Virus record (IMG/VR): IMGVR_UViG_2923519811_000002
Span: 1-64,000 of that record
Length of the DNA: 64,000 bases
DNA from: a virus
Taxonomy: Duplodnaviria > Caudoviricetes
Strand: one strand, 5' to 3'
Shown in pieces: positions 1 through 57,854 of this stretch. Each line of letters begins with the position of its first letter. Position 1 is the stretch's first letter. The notes below the pieces were generated by a model. The model did not search any database. It was not told the origin of the DNA and saw only the letters and a program-made list of their open reading frames with translations. A program made the position numbers and the translations under genes.

Positions 1-168
1 ATGAAAAGTCAAACGCAAGATCAAGGCAATGGGAAAGTGAATCAGGACAAAGCGGATGCCAAGGAGAAAGCTGGCCAGCATGAGAAAGGGCAAGATGTCG
101 AAAAGGCCAAGCCCGCCCCTCAGGAACAGCAATACAAGGCAGCCCAACCCAAAGGAACAACCCGTTGA
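1..168 (+). CDS. Hydrophilic hypothetical protein, possibly 5'-truncated
   Basis: Frame 1 open from position 1 (MKSQTQDQG...) to TGA at 166-168, followed by a terminator-like hairpin. Confidence 0.45.
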   Translation: MKSQTQDQGNGKVNQDKADAKEKAGQHEKGQDVEKAKPAPQEQQYKAAQPKGTTR

Positions 169-194
169 TTAAATAGCGGGGTTAAAGTCTCGAG

Positions 195-215
195 ACCCAG
201 CCTAGGCTGGGTTTT
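195..215. terminator. Intrinsic terminator-like palindrome between convergent genes
   Basis: ACCCAGCCTAGGCTGGGT perfect palindrome followed by a T run. Confidence 0.6.
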
Positions 216-502
216 CATTTATCTGCTGCGCCCCAAGGCAACGGTTGCAGCATAAGATACTCGGCGCCTGGCGGCTCGCAGGGCGCGGCACCTAAAAGTG
301 CTGCAAGCCTTGCAGAATCTGGCGGGAAAAACATATGACTACCCCCAGAGACTCGATGAATCCCAATACGAAAAGGCTCTTTCGATTCAGGCATCAGTGC
401 TCGCTGTCTCATACGTAGGCCTTTTATCTCTCTGTATATGGCGTTTCCGACCCCCAAATTTATCTGGTACCAACTCACAGTATCCACAATCACCCCCAAC
501 AC
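215..502 (-). CDS. Small hypothetical protein (start uncertain, alternative GTG near 487)
   Basis: ORF ending at the terminator; G-rich RBS-like sequence before the GTG. Confidence 0.45.
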   Translation of the reverse strand: MLGVIVDTVSWYQINLGVGNAIYREIKGLRMRQRALMPESKEPFRIGIHRVSGGSHMFFPPDSARLAALLGAAPCEPPGAEYLMLQPLPWGAADK

Positions 503-649
503 TTATTTATTGGCAAGGGCACATATCTGACCAAAGCCTTAACAACTGCGCACGGCCTCCCTTCCAGCCTACATACCGCAGTTGACTCCAAGGATATTGG
601 CATACGGAACAGCTTCAAAAATCCAATGGCGCTCCGCTCTCACGAATCA

Positions 650-862
650 TTACTCGATAGTTAGAACATCTTCCGCATGAATCCCTCTCGCTCCATTACC
701 GATCAAAAAAGATACGCGCTGACCTTCTGTCAACGTCTTATACCCCTCCCCTTTGATCTGCTTGTAATGAACAAAGATATCCGGCCCCTCTTGGCGAGAT
801 ATAAAACCGAAACCCTTATCAGCACTAAACCAAAGAACCACTCCAACTTGACGTAAAAACAT
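650..862 (-). CDS. Cold-shock domain protein (CspA family), 70 aa
   Basis: RNP1 KGFGFI and RNP2 IFVHY motifs; GGAGGG RBS before ATG at 862. Confidence 0.9.
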   Translation of the reverse strand: MFLRQVGVVLWFSADKGFGFISRQEGPDIFVHYKQIKGEGYKTLTEGQRVSFLIGNGARGIHAEDVLTIE

Positions 863-1340
863 ATACCCTCCGCAACTATAAACAGACACAAAGACATAGA
901 GCAGACTGATTGCGAAGGATAGGGGACCGAGAAGATAGCTAATAACGCGCAAGCACCTGAGCGGTGCCGCTAAACTGAGCAGGCAGCTAAACCAGCATAC
1001 AGGGTCAGCCGCCCAAAAACACAAATTTAAAAAATATATTTTCGAAAAAGAAAATAACTAGATCCCCCAAATAGAGAAGACTTATATCAAAACACCATTT
1101 CCATATTCGTCTTGAAATATGAGACCGGCCTGCTCAAGATAGCTTTCAACACAAGCCAATGATCGTTGAGACGGAGGTTTATCGTGGGCATGCCTCGCTT
1201 CAACTGCCCGCGACTTAGCGACACGCATTAGAGGCCGCCACCAGCTCCCTCTCGTAGCCGATCCGCCAGCCCCTCTCTAGCCCCTCCTACTGCCAAGCCC
1301 GAAGTGATAGCCTCCGCCCCGTGTAGGATGGAGTCTCACA

Positions 1341-2507
1341 ATGAAACCTCGCCGCCTGGCCCCCCTCTTCGCTGCCCTGGCCTTCACATCGGGCGCCGCC
1401 CTTGCTGACGTCACCAAGGTTGCTGACTGCTCGACGCCTGCAGGGTGCTTCCTGATATCCGGCGAAATCACCGATGCCGATGCCACCGCCCTCGCGCAGA
1501 TTTCCCGTTTCCTGGACGGACGCAAACTCAGCCGGCCGACCATCACGCTCAACTCTCCTGGTGGTGTCGTCGACGCTGCGATCGCTGCCGGCCGAACGAT
1601 TCGCCAGATGAGGGCAAAGGTTGAAGTTGACTCCGGAAGTCATTGCCTCAGCGCATGCGTCTTTCTGCTGGCTGGTGGGGTACGCCGTTCGGTCTACGGC
1701 ACTGTAGGGATTCACCGTCCCTATACACCTCAGATTGGGGAGCTCGACATTCAGCAAGCACAACAGGACTATCGCGCCACGCAAGACAAAGCGAAAGCGT
1801 TCCTGCGCGACATGAACCTGTCCGACAGGCTCTACGATGCCATGGTGCAAGTCCCTTCTGAGGACATGCGAAATCTCGACTTCACTGAACTGGAGTACTT
1901 CGGCCTAAACCTCACTGATCCTGTCGAGGGCGAGTACATGGATTCTGCCGGCGCTGCGAAGTACGGCATCAACAAGGCCGAATACCTGAAGCGAAAGGCT
2001 GTCGCCGACAAGTGCCCCAATGTCGTCGAGACCTTCGATGCTTGCGTGGAGCACGTCTTCAGTACCGGGTACCTCCCCTCCCAGAAGCCACAGCAGGACA
2101 GCACCATGGAAGCCGTGCTCGCCCAGGCTTATCGGGATTTTCCCTTCCTCGACCACACCAGGCCGTACGCCTACCGCCCGGCTATCGACGAGGTGGTCAA
2201 GGTGCGCGACGCGCTCATGGCCAAGGGTTACAGCGGCGCCGATGCGATACGTGAGGCGGTCCGGCAGGTTGGGCCCAAGTACGCAGGCAAGGCCGCGACA
2301 GCGAATGGAGATGGCGCTGCGCTGGCGACTGTGCTGCAGGAGGCTTACGCCCGTTACCCCTTCCTTGATTACGAGCGGCCCGACGCGAACCAGGCCGCAA
2401 TCGCTGAAGTGGTTGAGGTACGCAACGCGCTGATGGCGCAAGGTTACGGCGCAGCGGAGGCGATACGGGCCGCCGTCAACCAGGTAGCTCCGAAGTACGC
2501 GAAGTAG
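1341..2507 (+). CDS. Signal-peptide protein: ClpP/crotonase-like (COG3904-type) domain plus two C-terminal repeats homologous to the phage scaffold protein
   Basis: MKPRR-hydrophobic-ALA signal; LNSPGG, CLSAC and GIHRP motifs; two YxxF/YPFLD...EVVxVR...GPKYA-type repeats. Confidence 0.85.
   Translation: MKPRRLAPLFAALAFTSGAALADVTKVADCSTPAGCFLISGEITDADATALAQISRFLDGRKLSRPTITLNSPGGVVDAAIAAGRTIRQMRAKVEVDSGSHCLSACVFLLAGGVRRSVYGTVGIHRPYTPQIGELDIQQAQQDYRATQDKAKAFLRDMNLSDRLYDAMVQVPSEDMRNLDFTELEYFGLNLTDPVEGEYMDSAGAAKYGINKAEYLKRKAVADKCPNVVETFDACVEHVFSTGYLPSQKPQQDSTMEAVLAQAYRDFPFLDHTRPYAYRPAIDEVVKVRDALMAKGYSGADAIREAVRQVGPKYAGKAATANGDGAALATVLQEAYARYPFLDYERPDANQAAIAEVVEVRNALMAQGYGAAEAIRAAVNQVAPKYAK
2106..2504 (+). 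repeat. Two tandem ~60-aa protein repeats (2106-2285 and 2322-2504)
   Basis: AVLAQAYRDFPFLD...AVRQVGPKYA and TVLQEAYARYPFLD...AVNQVAPKYA. Confidence 0.9.
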
Positions 2508-3087
2508 GTTCGTCCAGGCCGAGCACGAGCTGCATCTGCTCCCGCCAGTACTCCACTTCCCGTTTCAGTGGGGACTTCTCGACCCGCCAGGCCGCCAGCC
2601 CCTTGCCATGGAGGCTCGCCAAGGCTTCGCGCTCTGCAAAGACAGCGCTGGCTCGCTCGAACTCCTGCAGCGGCTCGGCCTCACCACGCAGCAGTGCATC
2701 AATGTGGAGGTCGCACCAGACCGCGAAGTCCACATTCAGCCAGCGAGCGAACGCAACGGCCAGTTTCGGGTGAAGCCAGGTACCGCCGCCATTGGCTGCT
2801 GCGCCCCTGCGAGTCACGACCAAACCCGCGCAGTTGCTCAATTCGGGGCGGAAACCGGATTTGCCACCCTGGACTTTCTTGCTCTGCTTACGCTCGACCA
2901 TCTTGGGCTCAAACGGGATGCCAAGGTGCTTGGCAAGGGCGCGCATGTAGCATTCAGTTTCATGAAGCCGCAGCCAATCTCGCGGTTCCTGGCCAAATAC
3001 GGCCGCCGCCGCTGTGGCATTGATCCATCCATCGCGGTTGAAACGGATAGCCTGCCCTTGGTAATGAAACGGAATGACGTTGTTCAT
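2476..3087 (-). CDS. KilA-N domain DNA-binding protein (antirepressor-like)
   Basis: GWINAT...GGGTWLHPKLAVAFARWL KilA-N signature; GGGAG RBS before ATG at 3087. Confidence 0.88.
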   Translation of the reverse strand: MNNVIPFHYQGQAIRFNRDGWINATAAAAVFGQEPRDWLRLHETECYMRALAKHLGIPFEPKMVERKQSKKVQGGKSGFRPELSNCAGLVVTRRGAAANGGGTWLHPKLAVAFARWLNVDFAVWCDLHIDALLRGEAEPLQEFERASAVFAEREALASLHGKGLAAWRVEKSPLKREVEYWREQMQLVLGLDEPTSRTSELPG

Positions 3088-3216
3088 CGGTTTCTCCCTC
3101 CGCCTAGAAGAAGGGTCAGCAGGCAGGGGCGTAGGCGGGAGTAGACCATCCCTTTTCGGTAGCGAACCTAGCCTGCTGCGGCCTGCAGAGAGGCCGACCT
3201 GGTTGCCCAAGCCCGC

Positions 3217-3256: not shown

Positions 3257-6200
3257 TCAGCCCGCTGCCCGCCCCCGCTCGTCCGCCAGTTGCGCAGCTC
3301 GGTTCCGGGTCGCGTTCAGCTGCTTCAGCAGTTCCGCCTTCTCCGCCGCGCCCAGCGACCGATCATTCGTCACGGCCTTGATGCGCTGGTTGATGACGGT
3401 GATCTGCCGGTTGGCGGCCTGGTAGACCGGCCGCAGCTTCAGCATCTCATTACCAGCCAGCTGCTGCAGACGCTCCAGACCCCCCACCTTCCGTGCCTCG
3501 CTGGCCGAGGCGTAGAGCTGGTCGATCTGGTGCTGCATCTCGTAGAAGCGGGTCAGGTACTTGCTGCCACTGCCCGGGTCGGCTGCCTTCACGAAGTCCC
3601 CGAACAGCGTCCAGTTGTCCGGGTTGGTCAGGTCGCTCTTCGGATTCGACGGGAGGTCAGTGATGCCGCGAGTCAGGTAGTCGGCGGTGTTCAGCGCCTG
3701 GGTGCCGAGCCAGCCGAAGTAGCCGCGCACCAGGTGCTCGATCCGCTGCGGCGAGATCCCGGTCAACTGCCCGGCGGCCACGGCCGACGCGCTGGTCCTG
3801 GCGGTGTAGCGCTCCTCCGCCGGCAGCCGCTCCTGACCCATGCTGTCGATCGGGCGGTCGCGGAAGCTGTCGTAGTTGAAAGCGGCTTCCATCAGAGGCT
3901 TGAAGGCCTGCGGTACCGGGCTCATGGAAAGCTGGTTCCACAACAGCGAGCCAGCCGTGCTGGCGAAGTCGCCGGCCTGGTAGTCGTCACCGGAGAGCGC
4001 CAGCTCCGTCAACCGCTCGGCTACGCTGCCGAGCACGCCGACCTCGAAGGGCTTGGGCAGGTACAGCGCCTTCTCGGTACCCGGGATGCGCACCCACCAG
4101 TAGGTGTCACGGACCCAGTCCGGCAGCTGCTTGAACTCCTCGTCGTCCTTGTTGAGCAGGAACAGCAGGGTCGAGGCCATGGCCACCGCGCCGGCGACTG
4201 CCAGGAAGCGGCGCGGATCTGCCGAAGCACCGCGCCCCAGCTTGTACATCCCCTGCAGGCGGGCGTTCATGAAAGGCACGATCTGCGTCAAGAAGCGCAC
4301 GCTGGCCCACTTGCCGGCCGAGGTGAAGTCCATCATGTCACGAGCAGCGTAGCTGGCCTCCAGGTGGCTTTTGCCCTCGGCGCGCAGCTTCTCGTAGAGG
4401 GCGGCACGGTTGACCGTCTCCAGTCGGTCGCCGATCTCCTGGTACTTGTCCCAGGCACTGCGCAGCGCCTTGGCAGCCTTGGCGGGGGTGTTGAGGATCT
4501 GACTGGAGTCGACACCCCGGCTGATCAGGCGCTTCGCGTAGGTGGCCTGGTCGCCATCGTTCAGCGAGCCGAACCGCACAGCGCCGCCGCCGGCCAGCAG
4601 CCGGTGCAGCGTGGGGCTGTCCTTGCCGGTTCCCTTCCAGCCCGCGGCCATGTTCTTCAGCGGGTTGTAGCCCAGGTCGTTGGCGGCGATCGAGGAGATG
4701 CTGTCACGTAGCAGGTTGCGGGCGCGGAACGCGGGGCTGCTGGTGACCCCTACGGTCAGCGCGTGCTTGAAGGAACGCATGGCCTTCATGGCCGGGTTGT
4801 TCCAGTCCTGGTGATTCAGCATCGTCAGCGCGTCCAGCACCAGGGGATCGTCCACCAGGTAGTGCCGCTCCTTGCCGTTGACCATTACCCGAAGGCTACC
4901 CTTCTCCGCCTCGCGCACGCGGGTGGCGATGTTCATCTGCTCGGCAGCCTGCAGGGCCTTGTTCGCCGCCATGTTCTTCATGGACGCAGAGAGCAGGTGC
5001 GACCAGTTGGCCAGGGTGTTGGCCATCAGATCGCCCAACGGCTCCTTGCCGCCCTTGAGCTTCTTGAAGGCCTTCTGCCCGGTCAGCCCGCCGATCTGGC
5101 CCGGGCCGGCGGTACCGTCGCCCTCCTCCATCACTCGATAGAACGGGACGTAGAACTCGCTTTCCCAGAGCTTACGGCTGCTGCCGTCGATCAGGCCGGC
5201 CTGCTCGGCCACGTCCATCACCGCCTTCTGATAGGCGTTGAACTGCTTCAGCACATCGCGGTAGACCACCGCACGGCTGCGGCCATCGTCCATGGTGCCC
5301 TGGTTGAGCGAGCGCAGTGCTGCGATGTCATCCGGGGTGAAAAGGTTCTCGCGCCCCTCCTGGGCCAGTTTCTCGGCGCGGTTGCCAGCGATCCAGGCGA
5401 AGAAGAGATCGTGCTCCCCCTTCAGCTCCGCCAACACCCCACGCAAACCCTGGCCGTCCGCCTCGACGTCCAGCGCCCCGTCGGTGATCGTCGGCCGGCC
5501 ATGGAAGAAGGTGGCCTCCAGCGCTCCGTCCGTGCCTTTGGACAGGCGAGCCTGCATGTAGGCGGCCTGGTCCAGCTTGGCGATCGGTGCGAACTGGTCG
5601 AACACGCCCTGGATGACTTTCTCCTTCCAGCGCTCGGACAGCGCTCGCGCGGTCTTGGCCAGCGGTTCCTGTCGGATGAAGGCGCCTATCTTGCCGAGCG
5701 CATCCCGCTGGGCCGAGGTGGCGTGCTCCGGGAAACGCACCTCGCCACGGTTGGTCACCTGGTCGAAGAAGTCGGCCGCCCGTTGGCTTGCGCGGCTATA
5801 CCGCGCGTCACCCGCGTCACCCGCCTCCTTGCCAATGTCCTCCGGACGCAGTACCTTTTTGCCGAGCCGATGTTTTGGTGCCGCTTTGGGCAATTGGAGC
5901 CCTCTAGCGCTGGACCAAGCATCGGCTTTTTTATTGTCCACGTATCGCAGCAAGCCGCTCTCCATCCACTGCCTGATGAAGGCAGTGCTGTCCTTGGCGT
6001 GGATGCTGGCGATCCGGTTGACGGTAATGTTCTCCTTGCGGTTCATGTGCACCGCCACCACCACCGAGCGCCCACGGCTCGCCGTCTCCACCAGCGCCAC
6101 CAGGCCGTCCGGCGCAGTGGCGGAATCGAATACCATCACCGGCTCGCCGAGTGCAGCCAGGGCAGCCTTCACATCCCTGGGCGTCAGGCTGTGCTTGTCC

Positions 6201-9121
6201 ACGGCCTTCCACAGCGTGTCTTCGGTGATGTTGATCGGTGCATCAGCAGCCCCCCCCAGCGCCTTCAGCACGTCAGGCGTTCCGCCGAGAGACAGGGGCT
6301 TGGTGAGTGTCTTGCCCCTGAAGACTTCGTCGATTTCCTTCTCCAGCGCAGCGGGCAGTCCCGTTCCGGGCTCCCGGGAGTAGGTCTGTACCAACCCGCC
6401 GGTGCCCTTGTCCCCACCCTTCTCGATGAAGCGCCGCGCAGTGCCCAGCAGGGCCGCGATGTCCTGGTCGGTCCAACGCACCTTGAACCCGATGTCGCGC
6501 AGCGCATTGCGGAGAGCAGCAACCAGCCTCGGCCAGAAGCGCTGCTCAGTCAGGCGGCCAGCAGCGGCGAGGTCGGCCAGGACCTCCTCCATAGCCAATG
6601 CCTTGTCGTAGCCGAACCGATCGCGCAGGCGATCAGCCGACGAACGCAGAGCTGGATGCTCCTTGTAGATGCTGAGCAACAGCGGACTCAGCCGCTTGCC
6701 GAAGGCTCCCTGCAGGCCGGCATGGCCGATTACCTCGTGCTGGAGAACAAATGCAGCGTGCTGCAGGCTGGTGAGGTTGTCGGCGATGAGGTAGACGCCC
6801 TTTGGATCGTAGAGTCCTTCGGCATCAAGAGCACCATCGCGCTTCACCTGCTGGCGGAGCCGCGGCGGAAGGTCATCAATTGACTGGACGACATTGACCT
6901 GAGGAGCATTTTTCCAGCCGGCAACCATCCCACCAATCGACCTGGCCAGTGTTTCGGCACGAACCTTTCTGGCCCTCGGAGCCGCCATGCGATAGGCGCC
7001 ACGGGAATAATTGGTGTTGGCCCCCTGCTGTTCTACGCGATTGAAACCTTCGCGCTCCAGCGCTGCCCTGACCTTTTCGCCTGCCGCCTTGCCCTTGAAC
7101 TGCTGCACATCGTCAGGGCCCCATTCGACCTGGAAACCCTTGGCAGTAGGCGTAACGGTGGCGCGGACGGCCCCGTGCCGGCCATGCTGATATTCACCCG
7201 CTACGCTGGCGTCGCCTTGCTGCGCCGAGGCTGAAGCCTCCGGCACTTCATTCAGTGCACGCTGTCCGTCGGCCCCCGCAGCTGCAGGAGGAACACCAGT
7301 TCCGCTTTCCACTGGCTGGACTGCGGCAGCTTGCGGCGTTGCTTCAGCATCCGGTACTCCTGCCTGGTCAGTCGGCTGGAGCGGCGCAGCACCCTGATCG
7401 CCTGCTGCTCGCTCATCAACAGGCCCTGTCCCACTATCAACATATGCACGCTCCTGTACGGGGCGCCGCTGCACCGCCCACTGTCGACTACCGGTTTTCA
7501 CCACCTCGAACTCGTCGGGCAGCGGCAGACTCCGCAGCGCTTTGTTCGCGCCTGGCACGCTCCTGTAAGCGGTTGCGGTGACCTGTTGCTCTACCTTTGC
7601 GCCAGCGAGCGCCCGGGTCGCCATCGCTCGGCTTGCGCCCGTCCGCTCTGCGAGGGCCTTGGCGTCCAGCGCACCCTGTGCCTGGCGCGCCTGCTGCAGA
7701 ACTTCGCTGAACACCGGCCGCTGTGCCGTCTGCGCCTGCCTGTCCATGCCCGCGCCAAAGCTCGGACCCTGGTCCTCCACTGGCCTTGGGGTGGGCACCC
7801 GGGCGAACGACGCCTGACCACTGGGGTCCACCACAACTGCCTCCGGGCGCAGATCCGGCAGGCCGGGGTAGATTGGGCTGGCGTCGAAAGTCCGTACGGC
7901 CATGGGCGGGGTTTCGCGGACGGCCGGCGGCGTCGCCTGGATCAGCTCACCGGACAAAGGAACCACACCGCGCGGCACGGGCTGATCGATCCCGCCACCG
8001 CCGAAGGGCGAGCGGGGCTGGGCCTGCTCACGACCCGGCACCGGGCGCTGCTCCCTGTCCACGTCACGTACCGGTCCAGTGTCGCGAATGGTGCCGCTGG
8101 AATCTCCGTAGAGCACCGACTCAGGCGCGGGCAATGCCGCCAGCGGCGCGGGCCCTGGGAGGAGTCCAGCGGAGCGGCTGATCGGGCCCGCAGGTTCCGG
8201 AGTGGCCGGCTGGGCTGCCGGCGAGACAGGTGCCTGCTGGGCACGCTGGGCAATGCGCCCTGCAGCATCGACGCCACCGCCGAGAATGCCGCCGCCGATG
8301 CCGCCCAGAATGGCCGCGTTCAGCAGCTCGCTCCGGCCTTCCGCGTTGAACGCCTTCTGGCTGGGGTCGACGCTCTGCACTGCCAGGCGCTCGACAGCCG
8401 TCTGCCCTGCCTCCGTTGCGGCCTCGGTTGCGGCCTGCTGCCCTGCGGCACGCAGTAGCCCTTTGCTGGGCCGCATCGCCTTGGAGAGCAGGCCCAGTTC
8501 CGGGACGACATCCAGCGCGCCCGCGGCGGCTCCATAGGCGAGTGCGGTACCCGGAGCGTATTGCCCGGTCTTCTCGTAGATGTCGCCGTAGATGCTGCCC
8601 TGCTCCGTCCCAATGGACGTGCCAGCCAGCCCGGCCTGGATGCCTCGCTCGGTCAACTCGCGCGCGGCAGCCTGGCCCGCGCGCTCTGCTGCCGCACGCT
8701 CCAGCCCCTGGGCGATCCCCCCTTTGACGATCCCCTCGGCAGCCGATCGGCCTGCAACCCGTGCCGCCGCCCCGCCGATGCCGCCACCCGCGATCGAGCT
8801 GGCGGCGAACGGCACCAGTTGGCCCAGCCCCTGTGCCGCGTAGAGTCCGGCATCCTTCAGGCTGCCCACATCCTCGACTCGCTGGACAAGGGCGGGGTTC
8901 TGCTGCGCTTCATCCTGGTTGCGCAGGTAGCCGGCGATCCCCCAGTCACGCAGCCCGGGCTCGGCCACCACATCGCCGACCACGCCCGCCAGCCCGTATA
9001 GCGAGCCCTGAAGTGCATCGACACCGGAGGCGATCCCCTTGCCGAACTCGCCGCTGGCGGTTGCCTGCTTGCGCGCCAGCCGGGTATCCAGATCTGCCAG
9101 AATGTCGTAGTTGTCGGCCAT
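3257..9121 (-). CDS. Large polyvalent virion/ejection protein with zincin-like, MuF-C/PBECR-like and C-terminal LPD38 domains
   Basis: 1954 aa; QHEVIGH motif; LGGTPDVL...PVMVFDS...VNRIASIH segment; C-terminal WVRDTYW..LPKPFEVG...FNYDSFRDRPI typical of LPD38. Confidence 0.8.
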   Translation of the reverse strand: MADNYDILADLDTRLARKQATASGEFGKGIASGVDALQGSLYGLAGVVGDVVAEPGLRDWGIAGYLRNQDEAQQNPALVQRVEDVGSLKDAGLYAAQGLGQLVPFAASSIAGGGIGGAAARVAGRSAAEGIVKGGIAQGLERAAAERAGQAAARELTERGIQAGLAGTSIGTEQGSIYGDIYEKTGQYAPGTALAYGAAAGALDVVPELGLLSKAMRPSKGLLRAAGQQAATEAATEAGQTAVERLAVQSVDPSQKAFNAEGRSELLNAAILGGIGGGILGGGVDAAGRIAQRAQQAPVSPAAQPATPEPAGPISRSAGLLPGPAPLAALPAPESVLYGDSSGTIRDTGPVRDVDREQRPVPGREQAQPRSPFGGGGIDQPVPRGVVPLSGELIQATPPAVRETPPMAVRTFDASPIYPGLPDLRPEAVVVDPSGQASFARVPTPRPVEDQGPSFGAGMDRQAQTAQRPVFSEVLQQARQAQGALDAKALAERTGASRAMATRALAGAKVEQQVTATAYRSVPGANKALRSLPLPDEFEVVKTGSRQWAVQRRPVQERAYVDSGTGPVDERAAGDQGAAPLQPTDQAGVPDAEATPQAAAVQPVESGTGVPPAAAGADGQRALNEVPEASASAQQGDASVAGEYQHGRHGAVRATVTPTAKGFQVEWGPDDVQQFKGKAAGEKVRAALEREGFNRVEQQGANTNYSRGAYRMAAPRARKVRAETLARSIGGMVAGWKNAPQVNVVQSIDDLPPRLRQQVKRDGALDAEGLYDPKGVYLIADNLTSLQHAAFVLQHEVIGHAGLQGAFGKRLSPLLLSIYKEHPALRSSADRLRDRFGYDKALAMEEVLADLAAAGRLTEQRFWPRLVAALRNALRDIGFKVRWTDQDIAALLGTARRFIEKGGDKGTGGLVQTYSREPGTGLPAALEKEIDEVFRGKTLTKPLSLGGTPDVLKALGGAADAPINITEDTLWKAVDKHSLTPRDVKAALAALGEPVMVFDSATAPDGLVALVETASRGRSVVVAVHMNRKENITVNRIASIHAKDSTAFIRQWMESGLLRYVDNKKADAWSSARGLQLPKAAPKHRLGKKVLRPEDIGKEAGDAGDARYSRASQRAADFFDQVTNRGEVRFPEHATSAQRDALGKIGAFIRQEPLAKTARALSERWKEKVIQGVFDQFAPIAKLDQAAYMQARLSKGTDGALEATFFHGRPTITDGALDVEADGQGLRGVLAELKGEHDLFFAWIAGNRAEKLAQEGRENLFTPDDIAALRSLNQGTMDDGRSRAVVYRDVLKQFNAYQKAVMDVAEQAGLIDGSSRKLWESEFYVPFYRVMEEGDGTAGPGQIGGLTGQKAFKKLKGGKEPLGDLMANTLANWSHLLSASMKNMAANKALQAAEQMNIATRVREAEKGSLRVMVNGKERHYLVDDPLVLDALTMLNHQDWNNPAMKAMRSFKHALTVGVTSSPAFRARNLLRDSISSIAANDLGYNPLKNMAAGWKGTGKDSPTLHRLLAGGGAVRFGSLNDGDQATYAKRLISRGVDSSQILNTPAKAAKALRSAWDKYQEIGDRLETVNRAALYEKLRAEGKSHLEASYAARDMMDFTSAGKWASVRFLTQIVPFMNARLQGMYKLGRGASADPRRFLAVAGAVAMASTLLFLLNKDDEEFKQLPDWVRDTYWWVRIPGTEKALYLPKPFEVGVLGSVAERLTELALSGDDYQAGDFASTAGSLLWNQLSMSPVPQAFKPLMEAAFNYDSFRDRPIDSMGQERLPAEERYTARTSASAVAAGQLTGISPQRIEHLVRGYFGWLGTQALNTADYLTRGITDLPSNPKSDLTNPDNWTLFGDFVKAADPGSGSKYLTRFYEMQHQIDQLYASASEARKVGGLERLQQLAGNEMLKLRPVYQAANRQITVINQRIKAVTNDRSLGAAEKAELLKQLNATRNRAAQLADERGRAAG

Positions 9122-20916: not shown

Positions 20917-22020
20917 TCAGCCCAGGTAGTGGTCGATGGCGAGCACGCCGAAGTCCTCGACCGACTTGTCGTAGATCGAGTAGAACTTCGGCTTCAGCAG
21001 CCCGAACATCTTGTCCACGGAGATGCCGACCTTGGAGTCGTAGTCGAACTTCTTCTCGACCCACTCCGGCACGCTCAGGTCAGCCATGCCCAGCGCCTGC
21101 GCGCCGCACAGCAGGGTGCGGGTGCCATTGACGTTGCCGTCGGCGCCCCACTTGCTGCCGGCTGCGGCGCCGGTGGTGCTGTACACCATGCGGTGCTCGT
21201 GAAGGATCGCGCCGTCCACGGTCACGGTGCCGCCGGTGAAGAAGGGGCTATTGGCACCTTCCTTGGTGGCGATCGCCACGACTGCGCGCAGGTAGTCCGC
21301 GTCCTTCTTCAGCTGCGCCAGGGTGCCGGGCTTCACCAGGAGCACGTAGTACTCCTTGCCGCCAGCCATCAGCGGCTTGATGTAGTGGTCCTTCGCGTAG
21401 GCGACGGCGTCCACGATCATCTTGTAGCTGGCGGTGAAGGCGCTGGTGATGGCTGCCGTGCTGCTGGGCACGAGATTGGAGCCGTTCCACATCAGGTGGC
21501 GCTTGGACGAGGGGGCAGTCACGTCGGCAGCGAAGCTCAACTGAGGGAACGGCGATTTTTGCCGCGGGCTGCCGTCGGTGTTGACTGCATACGAGATGCC
21601 CGACAGGGTCAGGAAAGCCAGCTGGTCGATACGGTTCGAGAGCCAGTAGGCCAGGCGGCTCTTGGCCTGCTCGCGGAAGTTGATGACCGTCTTCTGGTCG
21701 GCGAGCTTGCCCTTGTTGCGCACCTGGTGGGAGATGAGGTCGATGCTCAGCTCGACTTCGAAGTTCTGGATCTCTTCTTCGTTGCCTTCACGCTGGTCGT
21801 CGCCGATCACACCATCGTCGACCAGGTCGGCCACGAGCTGCATGATCACCCGCTCACCCTTCTCGGTCTGGGTCAGCTCGGTGATGCGCTGGATCATGGC
21901 GCCATCGCCAGTACCCAGGAATTTCTTGATGAACATCTGGTCGCGGGCGGCTTCCCACACATCGCGCGACCAGACGATCTTCTGCTTGGCGTTCAGCCGA
22001 GCAAAGTTGGTTACGGACAT
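20917..22020 (-). CDS. Major capsid protein (N4-gp56/DUF4043 family)
   Basis: 367 aa; IQRITEL..KGERV...GVIGD...EGNEE and LLCGAQAL...DFGVLAID motifs; AGGAG RBS. Confidence 0.92.
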   Translation of the reverse strand: MSVTNFARLNAKQKIVWSRDVWEAARDQMFIKKFLGTGDGAMIQRITELTQTEKGERVIMQLVADLVDDGVIGDDQREGNEEEIQNFEVELSIDLISHQVRNKGKLADQKTVINFREQAKSRLAYWLSNRIDQLAFLTLSGISYAVNTDGSPRQKSPFPQLSFAADVTAPSSKRHLMWNGSNLVPSSTAAITSAFTASYKMIVDAVAYAKDHYIKPLMAGGKEYYVLLVKPGTLAQLKKDADYLRAVVAIATKEGANSPFFTGGTVTVDGAILHEHRMVYSTTGAAAGSKWGADGNVNGTRTLLCGAQALGMADLSVPEWVEKKFDYDSKVGISVDKMFGLLKPKFYSIYDKSVEDFGVLAIDHYLG

Positions 22021-22256: not shown

Positions 22257-22286
22257 CTGGTTATGTAACTGGCGAGCCGTCGTCAA
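22257..22286 (-). promoter_or_regulatory. Putative late promoter motif, copy 3 (before capsid leader)
   Basis: Minus strand TTGACG-ACGGCTC-GCCAGTTACA-TAACCA. Confidence 0.55.
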
Positions 22287-23350
22287 CGGCTGATGTAGTC
22301 CCCGCGTGCACGTTTTTTGTCCTCGGGGGAGAGCTTGGCGAAGTCCTCTTCCGACATGTTGGCCACATCCACAGACGCACCGCGCTCGCCCACTCCAGGG
22401 GTCAGCGGCGGAGTTGCGCGCTCACGCTTGAGGTTGCGATCAATCTGCTCGGTCGTCAGCGTCACCCCTTTCTTCGGCACCTTGTCGACGCTCACAGGCT
22501 CTGCGTAGCGCGGCCCGACCTTGGCCACGGCCCGGGCCAGCGCGGTGGCCATGGGCTCGCCCTTGGCGATGTAGTGGTCCCGCAGTGCAACGACTTCCTC
22601 GATCGCGTCCATGTTGGGCTCGCTCCCCTGGTAGTCGAGGAATGGGAATTTCTCGTAGGACTCCTTCAGCACCGCAGGCAACGCGGCCTGCTGCTGTCGT
22701 TGCGCGGCCTCCTGGGCACGCTGCTGGTAAAGGGCCTCGGCGCGCTGCTGCGCGGCTTCCTCGATCTCCTTGCGCTCGGCTGCACGGATCTCGCGACGGA
22801 TCGCCTTGGCCGCATCGGCGTCGCCCTCAAGGATCGCCTGGTTGTAGCGGTCCTCCGCCTCGTCGTAGTCGAAGGCCTTGGGCTTCGGGTCCTCCTCCTT
22901 CTTGGCCGGTACGGCCCCCCTGGCACGGGCCAGCTCCTCTTCCAGCTCCAGACGACGCTTGCGCTCCTCCTTGAGGCTCTCGTTCACCTCGTTGAAGCGG
23001 GCATGGGGCACGGTGGCGGACCTGCCGGTGCCGGCGATCTTGGCCAGCGCGTCCTCGTCGAGCTCGTCGTCCTGGCCGCCATCGTCCGGGTCTGCGTCCT
23101 GTTCGTTGTCACCCTGGTCGTCGTCCTGGTCGTCCTCTTCCAGCTCCAGGCCTTCGTCCTCTTCGGGGGGCAGGTCAGGGTCTACCTCGTCGCCGCGGTC
23201 CTCGGTGCCCTCTTCTTCCTCTTCCTCCTCTTCCTCAACGCCGGAGCCCAGCAGCTCGGGGTCCGGCTCGTCGTACTCGGAGACGACACGGCCCGCGAGG
23301 ATGGCCAGGGCCAGGTCGTCGCTGGCGTGCTTGATGCTGATAGGTTTCAT
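22283..23350 (-). CDS. Capsid scaffolding protein
   Basis: Acidic N-terminus, VPHARFNEVN coiled coil, C-terminal MSEEDFAKLS..KKRARGD; lies between portal and capsid genes. Confidence 0.8.
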   Translation of the reverse strand: MKPISIKHASDDLALAILAGRVVSEYDEPDPELLGSGVEEEEEEEEEGTEDRGDEVDPDLPPEEDEGLELEEDDQDDDQGDNEQDADPDDGGQDDELDEDALAKIAGTGRSATVPHARFNEVNESLKEERKRRLELEEELARARGAVPAKKEEDPKPKAFDYDEAEDRYNQAILEGDADAAKAIRREIRAAERKEIEEAAQQRAEALYQQRAQEAAQRQQQAALPAVLKESYEKFPFLDYQGSEPNMDAIEEVVALRDHYIAKGEPMATALARAVAKVGPRYAEPVSVDKVPKKGVTLTTEQIDRNLKRERATPPLTPGVGERGASVDVANMSEEDFAKLSPEDKKRARGDYISR

Positions 23351-23368: not shown

Positions 23369-23542
23369 TTAACGCGTGCTGAGCTGCTTCAGCTCGGTGA
23401 GTTTTTCGCCGGCCATGCGCCGCACGGCCGCCATACGCTTGCTGTCCTTCTTGATTTCCTCGGCCCTGAGCAGGGTTCGGAGGTCGTCCTCGATGCGCCA
23501 CTTGTCGCTCTCGGCGACCTGCGGTGCGCTGCCTTTACTCAT
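23369..23542 (-). CDS. Small conserved-looking phage protein, 57 aa (not in ORF track)
   Basis: MSKGSAPQVAESDKWRIEDDLRTLLRAEEIKKDSKRM...; ATGA overlap with the portal stop. Confidence 0.7.
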   Translation of the reverse strand: MSKGSAPQVAESDKWRIEDDLRTLLRAEEIKKDSKRMAAVRRMAGEKLTELKQLSTR

Positions 23543-25650
23543 GCTGCGGCTCCTTCAATGCGCGGGGTTTCGATACCGGCCTTCAGCCCTACGCCAGGGT
23601 TGGCCGGAGTCAGCGGGTTGGTGTTGGTGGGCAGCCCCCCGGCGATGCCGGGGCCGTTGTAGCTGGGGACGATCGGCGCCATGTCCTGGTCGACGTAGCC
23701 GGCCGAGCGCAGCAGCGCATCGGCCAGGGCGGAGGTAGCCGGGTTGATGGAGATGGTCCCGGCTGTCTGGATCGCGCTGAACTGCGACTCGACCGACGTG
23801 TTGACGGCCTCGTTGACCGTCTTCTGGGTCTGGGCTTCGGTGAGCTTGACCTTGGCCTCGGTGAGCGGGTCGACCGGAGGCTGGCCCTGCTGCTCCATCG
23901 CTTCGAGGATCTCCGTCTTGTCGGCCAGATTGCTGTGGCGAACCACAAACTGCGGCGGGATGCGGATGCCCTTGTCGAGCATCTCGATCAGCTGCAGGAA
24001 CTGGCTGTTCTCGAAGGTGACCTGCAGCGGGACCTCGGTGATGACCACGTCGTACTCGCCCAGGGTCAGGTCGTTGAGCACGGTACCGTCGTTGGCCGGA
24101 TAGTTGAGGTACAGGGGCTGGGTCTGCTCCTTGCCGTTGGAATCGGTCTCGGTGATACGGACGATGCGCGGCTCGTCGTAGAAGCCCTGGATCAGCTCCA
24201 GCGCCCGGCTGGCCAGCAGCGCGCGGGTGCGGCCGAGGTTGTCCAGCGGCACGGCCAGGCCCTGCTGGGCAGCGAACTGCTTGGTCTGGATGGCAATGCC
24301 GCTGACCTCGCGCCCCTGCCCGCCTGCCATGGCGTCGTTGATGCCGGTGGTCTCGTCCACCAGGCCAGAGGCCCGGTCGATCATTCGGTCCACGCCAGTT
24401 GGCACCTGGTTGGGCTGGATCTTGCGGGGGATCTTGTCGGTCGGCGTTCCATTCTTGAGGACCAAGTGGAGGCCGGTTTCCGCGCCCCTTTCCTCGATTT
24501 CCTCCTCGCGCATGTTGGCGATGGTGTCCGCCCAGCTGATCCAGCCGCTGTTCGCCGTGGTGTTGATGATGTGCAGGAACTGGCTCAGCGACTTGTTGAG
24601 CATCTGCTGCGGGCCGATCGCGTTGTCGACCAGGCCGCGTGTCTTGCCACGGCGGAAGAAGGGGAAGTACGGCACCACGGTGAAGTGGTTGTAGGGCGAC
24701 CAGTCGTCATGGAGCGTGGTGCACTGGGTGCTGACCACCCAGCGGACGCGACGCATCCGGCGATCAGCGATCGAGACGCCCTTCAGGGCTGCAGTCTGCT
24801 CCTCGCTCAGATCGTCTATCGGGCGGATGTCGCCGGTGAGCGTGATGGCCACCTTGCGCTTGACCATCCTCCAGAACTGGCGCTCGATGACGCGCACCCG
24901 CCGGCTGCCATCGGAAAGCTGGGTGGTCCCCATGCGATCAGCGAAGCCGGTGTCGTCGTTGCCGAACTTGTTGCGCTGTTCGTCATCGGCATCCTCGCCA
25001 TAGTCGCTGTCGTCGGGCTTCTCCAGTTCGACCTCGCTGCGCGCCTCGGTCCCGTAGTTCTCCTCGATCTCGTCGTAGGTCAGCCATTTGGCGATGGTCA
25101 CGTCGGACCAGCCATCGGGGTCATAGGATTTCGCGTCAGGATCCGGCACCACGTCCAGGGGGTCGAGGTCGGTGATCTGGATCTCGCCCAGCAGGCTGTC
25201 CTTGTAGGTGACGCGGATGTCGTAGTAGCCGCGCTGTTGGATCAGCCCGTCGGCGAACACCTGGGTCTCGGTCCAGTGCAGCTTGTTGTTGTCGGCCACC
25301 TGCATGATCAGCTTCGACAGGGTGGTGGCGCGGGCCTGGTCGGCATCACCACCGCGCGGGCGGAACGCAATGTCCATGCGGTTGTGGATCTGGTAGCCGA
25401 TCGCAGTGTTGATCTTGCCGAGGATCTGGTTGAACTCGAACGCCGGTCGCCCGCTCTCGCGCAGCTTCTCCACGTCGGCCTGGTCCCACTGCAGGCCGCC
25501 CCCCAGGTACATGCCCTCGTTGATCTTCGCCTGCCGGCAGTAGTCGCGGTGGCCACGGTTGCGGCCGTACTCGTAACGCTGCCAGTTCTGGCGCGCCGCC
25601 TGGTTGCGGTCGGTCGATTGGGGCTCGGTAGCGGTCGTCATCTCATCCAC
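23539..25650 (-). CDS. Portal protein (P22-like)
   Basis: 703 aa; GLQW...GRP..FNQI...IG; RGLVDNAIGPQQMLNK; SGIAIQ motifs. Confidence 0.92.
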   Translation of the reverse strand: MDEMTTATEPQSTDRNQAARQNWQRYEYGRNRGHRDYCRQAKINEGMYLGGGLQWDQADVEKLRESGRPAFEFNQILGKINTAIGYQIHNRMDIAFRPRGGDADQARATTLSKLIMQVADNNKLHWTETQVFADGLIQQRGYYDIRVTYKDSLLGEIQITDLDPLDVVPDPDAKSYDPDGWSDVTIAKWLTYDEIEENYGTEARSEVELEKPDDSDYGEDADDEQRNKFGNDDTGFADRMGTTQLSDGSRRVRVIERQFWRMVKRKVAITLTGDIRPIDDLSEEQTAALKGVSIADRRMRRVRWVVSTQCTTLHDDWSPYNHFTVVPYFPFFRRGKTRGLVDNAIGPQQMLNKSLSQFLHIINTTANSGWISWADTIANMREEEIEERGAETGLHLVLKNGTPTDKIPRKIQPNQVPTGVDRMIDRASGLVDETTGINDAMAGGQGREVSGIAIQTKQFAAQQGLAVPLDNLGRTRALLASRALELIQGFYDEPRIVRITETDSNGKEQTQPLYLNYPANDGTVLNDLTLGEYDVVITEVPLQVTFENSQFLQLIEMLDKGIRIPPQFVVRHSNLADKTEILEAMEQQGQPPVDPLTEAKVKLTEAQTQKTVNEAVNTSVESQFSAIQTAGTISINPATSALADALLRSAGYVDQDMAPIVPSYNGPGIAGGLPTNTNPLTPANPGVGLKAGIETPRIEGAAA

Positions 25651-57661: not shown

Positions 57662-57735
57662 TGGAGGCCGAAGTCGGAATCGAACCGGCGTACACGGATT
57701 TGCAATCCGCTGCATGACCACTCTGCCATCCGGCC
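57662..57735 (-). tRNA. tRNA-Cys(GCA), presumed attachment site
   Basis: 74-nt cloverleaf, anticodon loop TTGCAAA, TTCGA T-loop, CCA end. Confidence 0.95.
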
Positions 57736-57778
57736 TTAAATGAAGACGCCGCTTTGAGGCGGCGTCTTCATGACAATC

Positions 57779-57854
<76 letters not shown>

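What the first reader, a model, noticed from the sequence alone, without database searches (positions are those of the whole stretch)
1341..2507. Signal-peptide ClpP-like protein carrying two copies of a domain from the phage's own capsid scaffold (candidate scaffold-mimic system)
Seen: the C-terminus has two ~60-aa repeats that align without gaps to the scaffold segment at 22502-22681 (LPAVLKESYEKFPFLDYQGSEPNMDAIEEVVALRDHYIAKGEPMATALARAVAKVGPRYA). Hand count is 28/58 identities for repeat 1 (AVLAQAYRDFPFLDHTRPYAYRPAIDEVVKVRDALMAKGYSGADAIREAVRQVGPKYA) and 27/60 for repeat 2. The acidic N-terminus, the coiled coil and the extreme C-terminal helix of the scaffold are absent. The N-terminus is a Sec-type signal plus a ClpP/crotonase-like fold with Ser (CLSAC) and His (GIHRP) in ClpP catalytic-like positions. 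The gene is on the opposite strand to the late operon, like a moron. Known: ClpP/S49-type proteases are fused to scaffolds in some phages (lambda C/Nu3), and satellites redirect capsids with scaffold-like proteins. Inference: a captured, duplicated scaffold domain may act as a decoy or poison for head assembly of related superinfecting phages, or as a targeting module for the protease-like domain. I do not know of a description of this architecture.
Basis: partly seen in the sequence, partly recalled or inferred. Interest (0 to 1): 0.85.

Follow-up and report, generated by a model that had tools for sequence, protein, structure and literature searches.

The report
Exported protease carrying scaffold-family repeats
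A prophage accessory gene encodes a ClpP-like protease that is predicted to be exported to the periplasm and ends in two copies of a small helical module best known from phage head-scaffold proteins. The module is an undescribed family that mobile elements also attach to many envelope proteins, so a role at the cell envelope is more likely than poisoning of head assembly.

Summary
ORF 1341-2507 (+) encodes 388 aa: a Sec-type signal peptide, a ClpP-fold domain with Ser104 and His125 at the ClpP catalytic positions, and two 61-aa repeats. The repeats are 44-47% identical, without gaps, to residues 224-284 of the scaffold-position protein (22283-23350, -).

- The repeats are not a recent copy of the resident scaffold. 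In a domain tree they fall in a supported clade made only of non-scaffold copies.
- The module is an unannotated family of 472 clusters. About 70% of the best 150 are scaffold-like proteins. About 20% are fusions with a signal peptide or membrane segments (ClpP-like, DnaJ+3TM/RDD, zinc-ribbon+TM, Sel1, DUF4124).
- In these fusions the module is predicted to face the periplasm, so a decoy for cytoplasmic head assembly is topologically unlikely.
- All eight fusion families whose surroundings were read lie on prophages, satellites or an integrative element. Four sit beside the genes I take to be the ejection-protein module.
- The gene is under purifying selection.

My best reading is an exported protease with scaffold-family interaction modules acting in the envelope, possibly in superinfection exclusion. 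The function is untested. Earlier scan notes concern this same genome only.

The parts
1262..1340 (+). Conserved upstream leader of the gene. It carries a Shine-Dalgarno-like GGAG (1330-1333) 7 nt before the ATG. The mosaic joint to unrelated low-GC DNA (1-1260) lies at its left edge.
   Evidence: blastn homology to four related prophages starts at 1234-1262. Sequence read. GC rises from 0.44 to 0.65 here. No sigma-70 consensus promoter or intrinsic terminator was found.
1341..1406 (+). Sec-type signal peptide (residues 1-22, predicted cleavage after A-L-A).
   Evidence: Sequence features. pLDDT below 50 for residues 1-21. Conserved in all close homologues.
1407..1910 (+). ClpP-fold (COG3904-type) peptidase-like domain, residues 23-190. 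Ser104 is encoded at 1650-1652 and His125 at 1713-1715, within an invariant C-x-S-x-C motif.
   Evidence: Pfam PF00574, 23.5 bits. Foldseek to ClpP. Profile alignment to ClpP chains. Invariant columns. NCBI names a 91%-identical protein 'COG3904 family protein'.
1911..2105 (+). Helical extension with a conserved Cys pair (C224, C234), followed by a Pro/Gln/Ser linker.
   Evidence: AF2 helices 194-207, 212-222 and 229-242. Alignment A1.
2106..2288 (+). Repeat 1 of the three-helix scaffold-family module (residues 256-316).
   Evidence: dN/dS 0.0-0.23 against close alleles.
2322..2504 (+). Repeat 2 of the module (residues 328-388). The stop codon is at 2505-2507.
   Evidence: Domain-only AF2 model with pLDDT 96 and three helices.
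2379..2498 (+). Recombination joint inside repeat 2. To its left the sequence follows repeat 2 of the ClpP-like gene in L003. To its right it follows the 3' end and downstream DNA of the DnaJ-RDD-module gene in L003.
   Evidence: blastn overlap of the two matches. Three-way DNA alignment A5.
2476..3210 (-). KilA-N/ORF11CD3 gene, overlapping the finding's gene tail to tail by 32 bp.
3257..9121 (-). Last gene of the late operon: a 1954-aa polyvalent virion protein (MuF_C, LPD38). It is convergent with the finding's gene in all related prophages.
22283..23350 (-). Scaffold-position gene (355 aa). It has an acidic N-terminus and a coiled coil, the module at residues 224-284 (nt 22499-22681), and a basic C-terminal tail.
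   Evidence: It lies between the P22-type portal (23539-25650) and the Phage_capsid_3 capsid gene (20917-22020). Homologues are in the same position in 8 of 8 phages examined.

Best explanation
The gene encodes an exported, ClpP-fold (COG3904-type) serine peptidase made from a prophage accessory region. Its two C-terminal three-helix modules belong to an undescribed protein-interaction family. The commonest home of that family is the scaffold of phages with a Phage_capsid_3 capsid. Mobile elements also display it on the periplasmic side of many envelope proteins.

Proposed working:
1. The Sec system exports the protein and the signal peptide is removed.
2. The tandem modules either make the enzyme multivalent or self-associated, or tether it to a partner.
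3. The Ser104/His125 site cleaves a periplasmic or envelope-crossing protein.
4. The most likely biological role is an envelope-level function of the lysogen. I favour interference with the entry stage of incoming related phages, that is, superinfection exclusion. It is not interference with cytoplasmic head assembly.

Shown here: the architecture, the fold, the conserved Ser and His, homology of the repeats to scaffolds, location on mobile elements, purifying selection, and copy-number change by recombination. Inferred: export, catalysis, what the module binds, and the exclusion role.
For: Architecture and fold. Ser104 and His125 are invariant in 15 homologues.

Export: the signal peptide features, six conserved cysteines in three pairs, and NCBI's COG3904 name.

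Module family: 472 clusters, 131 of them at E<=1e-10. Among the best 150, about 107 are scaffold-like and about 30 carry a signal peptide or membrane segments. The architectures are DnaJ+3TM or RDD, Zn-ribbon+TM, Sel1, DUF4124 and ClpP-like.

Topology: nine J-domain or Zn-ribbon proteins share three hydrophobic segments, with basic residues before the first and between the second and third. That places the module outside the cytoplasm.

Contexts: every fusion family whose surroundings were read lies on a mobile element.
- The ClpP-like type lies in five related prophage loci, beside the giant virion-protein gene.
- DnaJ-RDD-module is the next gene in L003 and L004.
- DUF4124-module lies inside a P. 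aeruginosa prophage late operon.
- DnaJ-3TM-module lies inside another late operon.
- Two lie in P4-like satellites, and one in an integrative element.

The module is rare in genomes: 1 of 301 genomes of the genus of G001 (a Pseudomonas sp.). The gene is under purifying selection, with dN/dS 0.12-0.16 overall. A precedent for a prophage envelope protein that blocks the ejection-protein conduit is P22 SieA (PMC10883804).
Against: No experiment or complex prediction links the module to any partner. The third catalytic residue could not be assigned, so the domain might be inactive.

The putative ejection-module proteins of this phage (339 aa, 556 aa, and the LPD38 giant) are not detectable in three complete phages whose scaffolds carry the module. 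The scaffold module's conserved partner is therefore more likely the capsid protein, the portal or itself. None of those is exposed in the periplasm as a free protein.

There is no sign of diversifying selection in the repeats. There is no PADLOC match and no promoter consensus. Expression in lysogeny is unknown. One 737-aa DnaJ protein (P0034) has two divergent copies on the cytoplasmic side. Adjacency to the end of the late operon may only reflect a common moron insertion site.
Confidence: 0.42

Rival explanations
1. The module is a generic self-association (dimerisation) unit. In scaffolds it oligomerises the scaffold. In periplasmic proteins it merely oligomerises them. On this reading the ClpP-like protein is a lysogen fitness or housekeeping protease of the envelope with no phage target.
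For: The same, strongly conserved motifs (Y-P-F-L-D and G-P-K/R-Y-A) occur in cytoplasmic scaffolds and in periplasmic fusions. Self-association would explain this most simply. No conserved ejection-protein partner was found across phages whose scaffolds carry the module. The repeats are under purifying, not diversifying, selection. Stand-alone COG3904 proteins without the module are common in Pseudomonadota.
Against: It does not explain why every non-scaffold copy examined lies on a prophage, satellite or integrative element. Nor does it explain why four architectures lie next to the ejection-protein genes, or why the module is so rare in genomes. Tandem copy number of 1 to 3 is more typical of avidity-type binding modules than of dimerisation units.
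Confidence: 0.3
2. One reading: a cytoplasmic scaffold mimic that poisons or redirects head assembly of related phages. This could work through the full-length protein or through a repeat-only product made from the internal Met256.
For: The repeats are homologous to the scaffold. Satellites with capsid-redirecting scaffold mimics exist (SaPI CpmB and P4 Sid; my own knowledge, not tested here), and two module-bearing proteins do lie in P4-like satellites. An AGGA lies 7 nt upstream of the Met256 codon.
Against: The signal peptide and conserved Cys pairs predict export. The satellite-borne proteins are N-in three-helix membrane proteins with the module outside. Met256 is replaced by Ile or Leu in P0003, P0012 and P0013-P0015, so an internal start is not conserved. 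The repeats are not closest to the resident or any other scaffold.
Confidence: 0.07
3. The protein serves the phage's own lytic cycle in the envelope. Examples would be remodelling or clearing envelope proteins before lysis, or sensing superinfection in the way the periplasmic T4 RI antiholin does.
For: Two other module-bearing envelope proteins are encoded on the late strand inside late operons. The gene abuts the late operon.
Against: In this prophage family the gene is on the opposite strand to the late operon. It sits with other accessory genes such as SRAP. It is absent from complete relatives whose scaffolds carry the module, so it is dispensable.
Confidence: 0.1
4. The ClpP-like domain is a non-catalytic binding scaffold (a pseudo-protease), and the protein acts purely by binding.
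For: No third catalytic residue could be assigned. The match to ClpP is weak: TIGR00493 scores 26 bits against a cut-off of 309.
Against: Ser104 and His125 are invariant even in homologues that are 26-41% identical overall in the family alignment, which argues for catalysis. Ser-His dyad or Ser-Lys enzymes exist in the ClpP/crotonase clan (my own knowledge).
Confidence: 0.08

Closest known systems
ClpP (MEROPS S14) and the COG3904 'predicted periplasmic protein' group
   Same: The same alpha/beta fold, with Ser and His at the ClpP catalytic positions. NCBI names a 91%-identical protein COG3904 family.
   Different: It has a signal peptide and no cytoplasmic AAA+ partner is possible. It scores far below the ClpP equivalog cut-off. 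It has an invariant C-x-S-x-C around the nucleophile and one to three C-terminal scaffold-family modules. Stand-alone COG3904 proteins lack those modules.
Phage scaffolding proteins (such as P22 gp8) and the scaffold of this prophage
   Same: It shares one 61-aa three-helix module with the scaffold-position proteins of Phage_capsid_3 phages, at 44-47% identity.
   Different: It has no acidic N-terminus, coiled coil or C-terminal tail. It is not in the head module, and it is exported. Neither the module nor the whole scaffold shows detectable similarity to P22 gp8.
Lambda C/Nu3 and ClpP-related prohead protease-scaffold fusions
   Same: A ClpP-clan protease domain joined to scaffold-related sequence.
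   Different: Those are cytoplasmic head-module genes in the late operon. This one scores 23.6 bits against a cut-off of 120 for the ClpP-related head maturation protease model. It has a signal peptide and lies outside the head module on the other strand.
Prophage superinfection-exclusion proteins of the envelope (P22 SieA; T4 Imm/Sp; T5 Llp)
   Same: It is prophage-encoded and predicted to be envelope-located. SieA acts on the ejection-protein conduit in the periplasm and inner membrane (PMC10883804).
   Different: No sequence relation was sought or is known. A protease plus a scaffold-family module would be a different mechanism, and exclusion is untested here.
Satellite capsid-redirecting scaffold mimics (SaPI CpmB, P4 Sid)
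   Same: These are mobile-element proteins that imitate part of a helper's scaffold. Two module-bearing proteins lie in P4-like satellites.
   Different: Those mimics act in the cytoplasm on procapsids. The proteins found here are predicted to show the module in the periplasm.
Membrane-bound ClpP-class proteases (NfeD/1510-N stomatin-specific protease)
   Same: A ClpP fold used outside the classic ATP-dependent barrel. It appears among the Foldseek matches (6m4b).
   Different: A different partner domain and different membrane anchoring. No stomatin gene is nearby.

Membership tests
ClpP-fold serine peptidase (Pfam CLP_protease, clan ClpP_crotonase) | ClpP alpha/beta fold | tested here: met
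   Foldseek against the PDB: ClpP chains at E about 2e-7, TM (target) 0.63-0.70, about 165 aligned columns. Pfam 23.5 bits against a cut-off of 20.2.
ClpP-fold serine peptidase (Pfam CLP_protease, clan ClpP_crotonase) | Nucleophile Ser and general-base His at the ClpP positions | tested here: met
   Ser104 and His125 are invariant in 15 homologues. They align with the ClpP catalytic Ser and His in the profile alignment.
ClpP-fold serine peptidase (Pfam CLP_protease, clan ClpP_crotonase) | Third catalytic residue (Asp) | tested here: inconclusive
   An acidic residue is conserved at position 174 (Glu, or Asp in the two most distant homologues). The profile alignment of this region to ClpP is not reliable, at 0.4 bits.
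Bona fide ClpP (ATP-dependent Clp protease proteolytic subunit) | Score above the equivalog cut-off; tetradecamer working with a cytoplasmic AAA+ unfoldase | tested here: not met
   TIGR00493 scores 26.2 bits against a cut-off of 308.6. A signal peptide predicts a compartment without ATP. The oligomeric state is not testable here.
COG3904 family (predicted periplasmic protein) | Sequence membership as named by NCBI; signal peptide plus ClpP-like core | tested here: met
   A 91%-identical protein (P0010) and a 53%-identical one (P0015) are named COG3904 family protein by NCBI. The nearest Atlas clusters are COG3904 or ClpP-like. These are source names, not an independent test.
Phage scaffolding protein | Gene between the portal and major capsid genes; acidic/coiled-coil body and a capsid-binding C-terminus | tested here: not met
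   The gene lies 20 kb from the head module on the other strand and has only the 61-aa module in common. The 22283-23350 gene does meet the positional criterion.
ClpP-related prohead (head maturation) protease | Score above the model cut-off; location in the head module; cytoplasmic | tested here: not met
   NF045542 scores 23.6 bits against a cut-off of 120. PHROG head maturation protease matches are only at E 0.004-0.05. The protein has a signal peptide and lies outside the head module.
Superinfection-exclusion protein of the envelope (SieA-like in function) | Prophage-encoded and envelope-located | tested here: met
   The prophage context is conserved in five loci. Envelope location is predicted from the signal peptide only.
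Superinfection-exclusion protein of the envelope (SieA-like in function) | Blocks entry of related phages when expressed | not testable with these tools
   This needs plating, adsorption and DNA-entry assays.
Known anti-phage defence systems (PADLOC-DB) | Match to a model of a known or candidate defence protein | tested here: not met
   No family at E<=0.01 for P0001 or for six other module-bearing proteins.

The most novel reading that the evidence does not exclude
Mobile elements have repeatedly moved a scaffold-protein module to the periplasmic face of the envelope. There it is fused to a protease, to J-domain or zinc-ribbon membrane anchors, to Sel1 repeats and to DUF4124. On this reading it recognises a component of incoming virions of Phage_capsid_3/P22-portal phages as that component crosses the periplasm. 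This would be a new family of entry-stage exclusion or sensing systems. The ClpP-like member would destroy the captured component, and the J-domain members would signal or recruit DnaK across the membrane.
Probability: 0.2. Interest if true: 0.85.

Novelty: new variant of a known kind. Interest (0 to 1): 0.6.

Why it matters
If the reading holds, it defines an unannotated 61-aa domain family with no match in Pfam, NCBIfam or PHROGs. The family links two compartments that are normally unrelated in phage biology: the inside of the procapsid and the periplasm.

It gives a concrete, testable candidate for a new kind of prophage- or satellite-encoded envelope function. Half a dozen natural architectures and natural 1-, 2- and 3-repeat variants are available to compare. 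It would also assign a first biological context to COG3904 proteins.

Even the modest outcome, a portable oligomerisation module, would help in annotating the scaffolds of a large group of poorly studied prophages. Only 2 of 50,697 deposited phage records carry the module.

Tried and rejected
- Recent capture from the resident scaffold: rejected by the domain tree.
- Fold of the module: the domain-only model (pLDDT 96) has no convincing match. Foldseek against the PDB gives a best E of 1.8, VIA-align wide a best Z of 5.3 (noise for small helical bundles), and BFVD a best E of 0.64.
- Homology of the scaffold or the module to P22 gp8: none.
- Known defence systems: no PADLOC match.
- Idea that the scaffold module loads the LPD38 giant protein or the 339-aa and 556-aa proteins: these are not detectable in the complete phages G305, G306 and AP1, whose scaffolds carry the module.
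- Conserved internal start at Met256 giving a cytoplasmic repeat-only product: the Met is not conserved across the family, although an AGGA precedes it in this allele.
- Diversifying selection in the repeats: not seen, with dN/dS 0.0-0.23.
- Promoter and terminator consensus around the gene: none.
- Pattern scans of genome contigs and viral contigs gave few loci because the back-translated pattern was narrow.
- Related contigs from NCBI and Logan could not be searched as whole records.
- Literature: searches for COG3904 and for scaffold decoys found nothing on this architecture.
- Coordinates and PAE of the models were not available. Packing of the two repeats and the geometry of the active site could therefore not be examined.
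Full report
**1. The observation**

The ORF 1341-2507 (+) encodes a 388-aa protein, P0001. The ORF 22283-23350 (-) encodes a 355-aa protein, P0002. P0002 has a very acidic N-terminus and a coiled coil. It lies between a P22-type portal gene (23539-25650, Pfam E=9e-99) and a Phage_capsid_3 major capsid gene (20917-22020, E=2e-41), which is the scaffold position.

BLASTP of the two proteins gives two ungapped matches of the C-terminal repeats to P0002 residues 224-284. They score 27/61 identities (E=1e-12) and 28/60 (E=1e-11). A profile of the module finds exactly these three copies in the 107-kb provirus record.

**2. The N-terminal part**

Residues 1-22 have the features of a Sec signal peptide: K2, R4 and R5, a 17-residue hydrophobic core, and A-L-A before D23. 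They are unstructured in the AlphaFold model.

Residues 23-190 match Pfam CLP_protease just above its cut-off, at 23.5 against 20.2 bits. In the model (mean pLDDT 80.7) they superpose on ClpP chains, with Foldseek E about 2e-7, TM 0.63-0.70 on the target, over about 165 columns.

Ser104, within an invariant C-x-S-x-C, and His125 (G-I-H-R-P) are invariant across 15 homologues down to 26% overall identity. They align with the catalytic Ser and His of ClpP. A third catalytic residue could not be assigned.

The protein is far below the cut-offs for true ClpP and for ClpP-related prohead proteases. NCBI names its close relatives 'COG3904 family protein'. Stand-alone COG3904-like proteins of about 255 aa are common in Pseudomonadota, and one occurs in Agrobacterium phage Atu_ph08.

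**3. The gene family and its place in the prophage**

Homologues occur in Pseudomonas prophages with one repeat (P0015, P. solani), two repeats (most) or three repeats (P0003). In every contig read, the gene is convergent with the last gene of the late operon, a polyvalent virion protein of 1940-2500 aa with MuF_C and LPD38 domains.

Similarity of the window to these prophages begins about 80 nt upstream of the ATG, at 1234-1262. To the left lies unrelated low-GC DNA.

The gene is 87-89% identical to its alleles, while the flanking KilA-N and giant genes are 96-97% identical. It is therefore a mosaic accessory gene. It is under purifying selection, with dN/dS 0.12-0.16 overall and 0.0-0.23 in the repeats.

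**4. A second fusion next door, and how copy number changes**

In L003 and L004 the next gene encodes a DnaJ + RDD membrane protein (P0029, 382 aa) that ends in one copy of the same module. The window lacks this gene.

A three-way DNA alignment shows how. The window's repeat 2 follows the ClpP-like gene's repeat 2 up to about nt 2480. It then switches to the 3' end, stop codon and downstream DNA of the DnaJ-RDD gene. Recombination between module copies therefore deleted that gene here, or inserted it in L003. Recombination of this kind also explains the variants with one to three repeats.

**5. What the module is**

A profile of 12 copies was searched against 1.84 billion representative proteins. 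It finds 472 clusters at E<=1e-3 and 131 at E<=1e-10. Pfam, NCBIfam and PHROGs have no model for it.

Among the best 150 clusters, the breakdown is as follows.
- About 107 are proteins of 280-350 aa with the module at about residues 170-250 followed by a tail of 50-110 residues. These have no membrane segment, which is the scaffold architecture.
- About 30 carry a signal peptide or membrane segments.
- About 11 are fragments or unclear.

Eight of eight scaffold-type members whose neighbourhood I read lie immediately upstream of a Phage_capsid_3 gene. Only two of 50,697 deposited phage records carry the module: Acidovorax phage AP1, and one metagenomic phage.

The non-scaffold architectures are:
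- DnaJ + RDD, or DnaJ + a three-helix anchor;
- zinc ribbon + membrane anchor or RDD;
- signal peptide + two modules + Sel1 repeats;
- signal peptide + DUF4124 + module;
- ClpP-like + module;
- multi-pass membrane proteins.

The module alone folds with pLDDT 96 into three helices. It has no convincing structural relative and no similarity to P22 gp8.

**6. Topology**

Nine J-domain or zinc-ribbon proteins share a membrane unit of three hydrophobic segments. A basic R-L-W-R-G-E motif precedes the first segment. Three sampled loops between the first and second are acidic or mixed. A basic W-R-S-A-G-R loop lies between the second and third.

The J domain must be cytoplasmic, so this places the C-terminal module outside the cytoplasm. 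Together with the signal-peptide proteins, the rule is that the module faces the periplasm when it is not in a scaffold. One exception is P0034, which has two divergent copies next to its J domain.

**7. Origin of the repeats**

In a tree of 178 module copies, both repeats of P0001 lie in a clade of 15 copies with 97% support. That clade contains only ClpP-like repeats and the DnaJ-RDD copy. The resident scaffold sits elsewhere, with its own relatives.

The label 'non-scaffold' needs at least four changes on well-supported branches. The module has therefore moved between contexts several times. This gene, however, did not copy its own phage's scaffold recently. With only 61 columns the tree is weakly resolved.

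**8. Where the fusions live**

The module is rare in genomes. It was found in 1 of 301 genomes of the genus of G001 (a Pseudomonas sp.), and that one is scaffold-like.

All eight fusion families whose surroundings I could read are on mobile elements.
- The ClpP-like and DnaJ-RDD genes lie at the end of the late operon.
- The DUF4124 fusion lies inside a P. aeruginosa prophage late operon, just before a 488-aa gene and a 2346-aa LPD3/LPD38 gene.
- A DnaJ-3TM fusion lies inside another late operon, right after genes of 339, 580 and 782 aa.
- Two fusions lie in P4-like satellites, with integrase and Toprim primase, one beside a small-terminase gene and one near RexA.
- The Sel1 fusion lies in an integrative element.

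Four different architectures thus lie next to the genes that I take, from position and size only, to be the ejection-protein module.

**9. Interpretation**

A decoy for head assembly is unlikely, because the protein and its relatives display the module in the periplasm. I favour an exported protease whose modules give multivalency or targeting in the envelope.

The biological role is most plausibly an envelope-level prophage function such as exclusion at the entry stage. P22 SieA is a precedent: it acts on the ejection-protein conduit.

Against a specific virion target:
- the 339-aa, 556-aa and LPD38 proteins are not detectable in three complete phages whose scaffolds carry the module;
- the repeats show no diversifying selection;
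- there is no match to known defence proteins.

A generic self-association module is therefore a serious rival. Met256 is preceded by AGGA in this allele, but it is replaced in five homologues.

**10. Verdict**

This is a new variant of a known kind: a COG3904/ClpP-fold protein carrying modules of an undescribed family. That family's distribution, in cytoplasmic scaffolds and in periplasmic proteins of mobile elements, is unexpected. The function remains to be tested.

Noticed in passing
L003:11194-12342 (and L004, same coordinates): In related prophages, a 382-aa DnaJ + RDD membrane protein ending in one copy of the scaffold-family module lies directly after the ClpP-like gene. It is missing from the window, apparently through recombination between module copies (joint at window 2379-2498).
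   Followed up: yes
L012:10001-10804: A 267-aa protein with a signal peptide, DUF4124 and the module, recorded on at least 24 contigs and named as P. aeruginosa by NCBI. It lies on the late strand inside a prophage structural operon, just before a 488-aa gene and a 2346-aa LPD3/LPD38 gene. No deposited phage record carries it.
   Followed up: partly
L015:8137-8928 and L036:3321-4445: Two P4-like satellites (integrase, HTH_39, Toprim primase) carry membrane proteins with the module on the predicted periplasmic side. One is near a RexA gene and the other is beside an Sf6-type small terminase gene.
   Followed up: partly
window 1644-1658 (residues 102-106): The catalytic-position serine sits in an invariant C-x-S-x-C motif. 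It is conserved even in homologues of 26-41% overall identity. The two flanking cysteines might form a redox-sensitive pair in an exported enzyme.
   Followed up: no
window 1-1260: Low-GC (0.44-0.54) DNA unrelated to the sister prophages. It holds a small hydrophilic ORF (1-168) and a cold-shock-domain gene on the minus strand (650-1024; the true start is probably an internal ATG giving about 70 aa). The prophage-type sequence starts abruptly at about 1262.
   Followed up: partly
window 3257-9121 (-): A 1954-aa polyvalent virion protein with MuF_C and LPD38 domains and an H-E-x-x-H motif. Its relatives vary from 782 to 2497 aa and swap N-terminal domains (LPD1, LPD3, LPD5).
   Followed up: no
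window 57662-57854 (-), and the whole 107-kb record: tRNA-Cys and tRNA-Gly lie far from the head-to-giant-gene module. In sister genomes the same prophage end abuts pgsA-uvrC-gacA. The 107-kb 'provirus' record probably holds more than one element or some host flank.
   Followed up: no
L003:8468-9967; L005:7501-8941; L007:7501-8941; L035:18743-19435: An SRAP (SOS-response-associated peptidase) gene, followed in L003, L005 and L007 by an unannotated gene of 234-254 aa, recurs in the accessory region next to module-bearing genes in several prophages.
   Followed up: no
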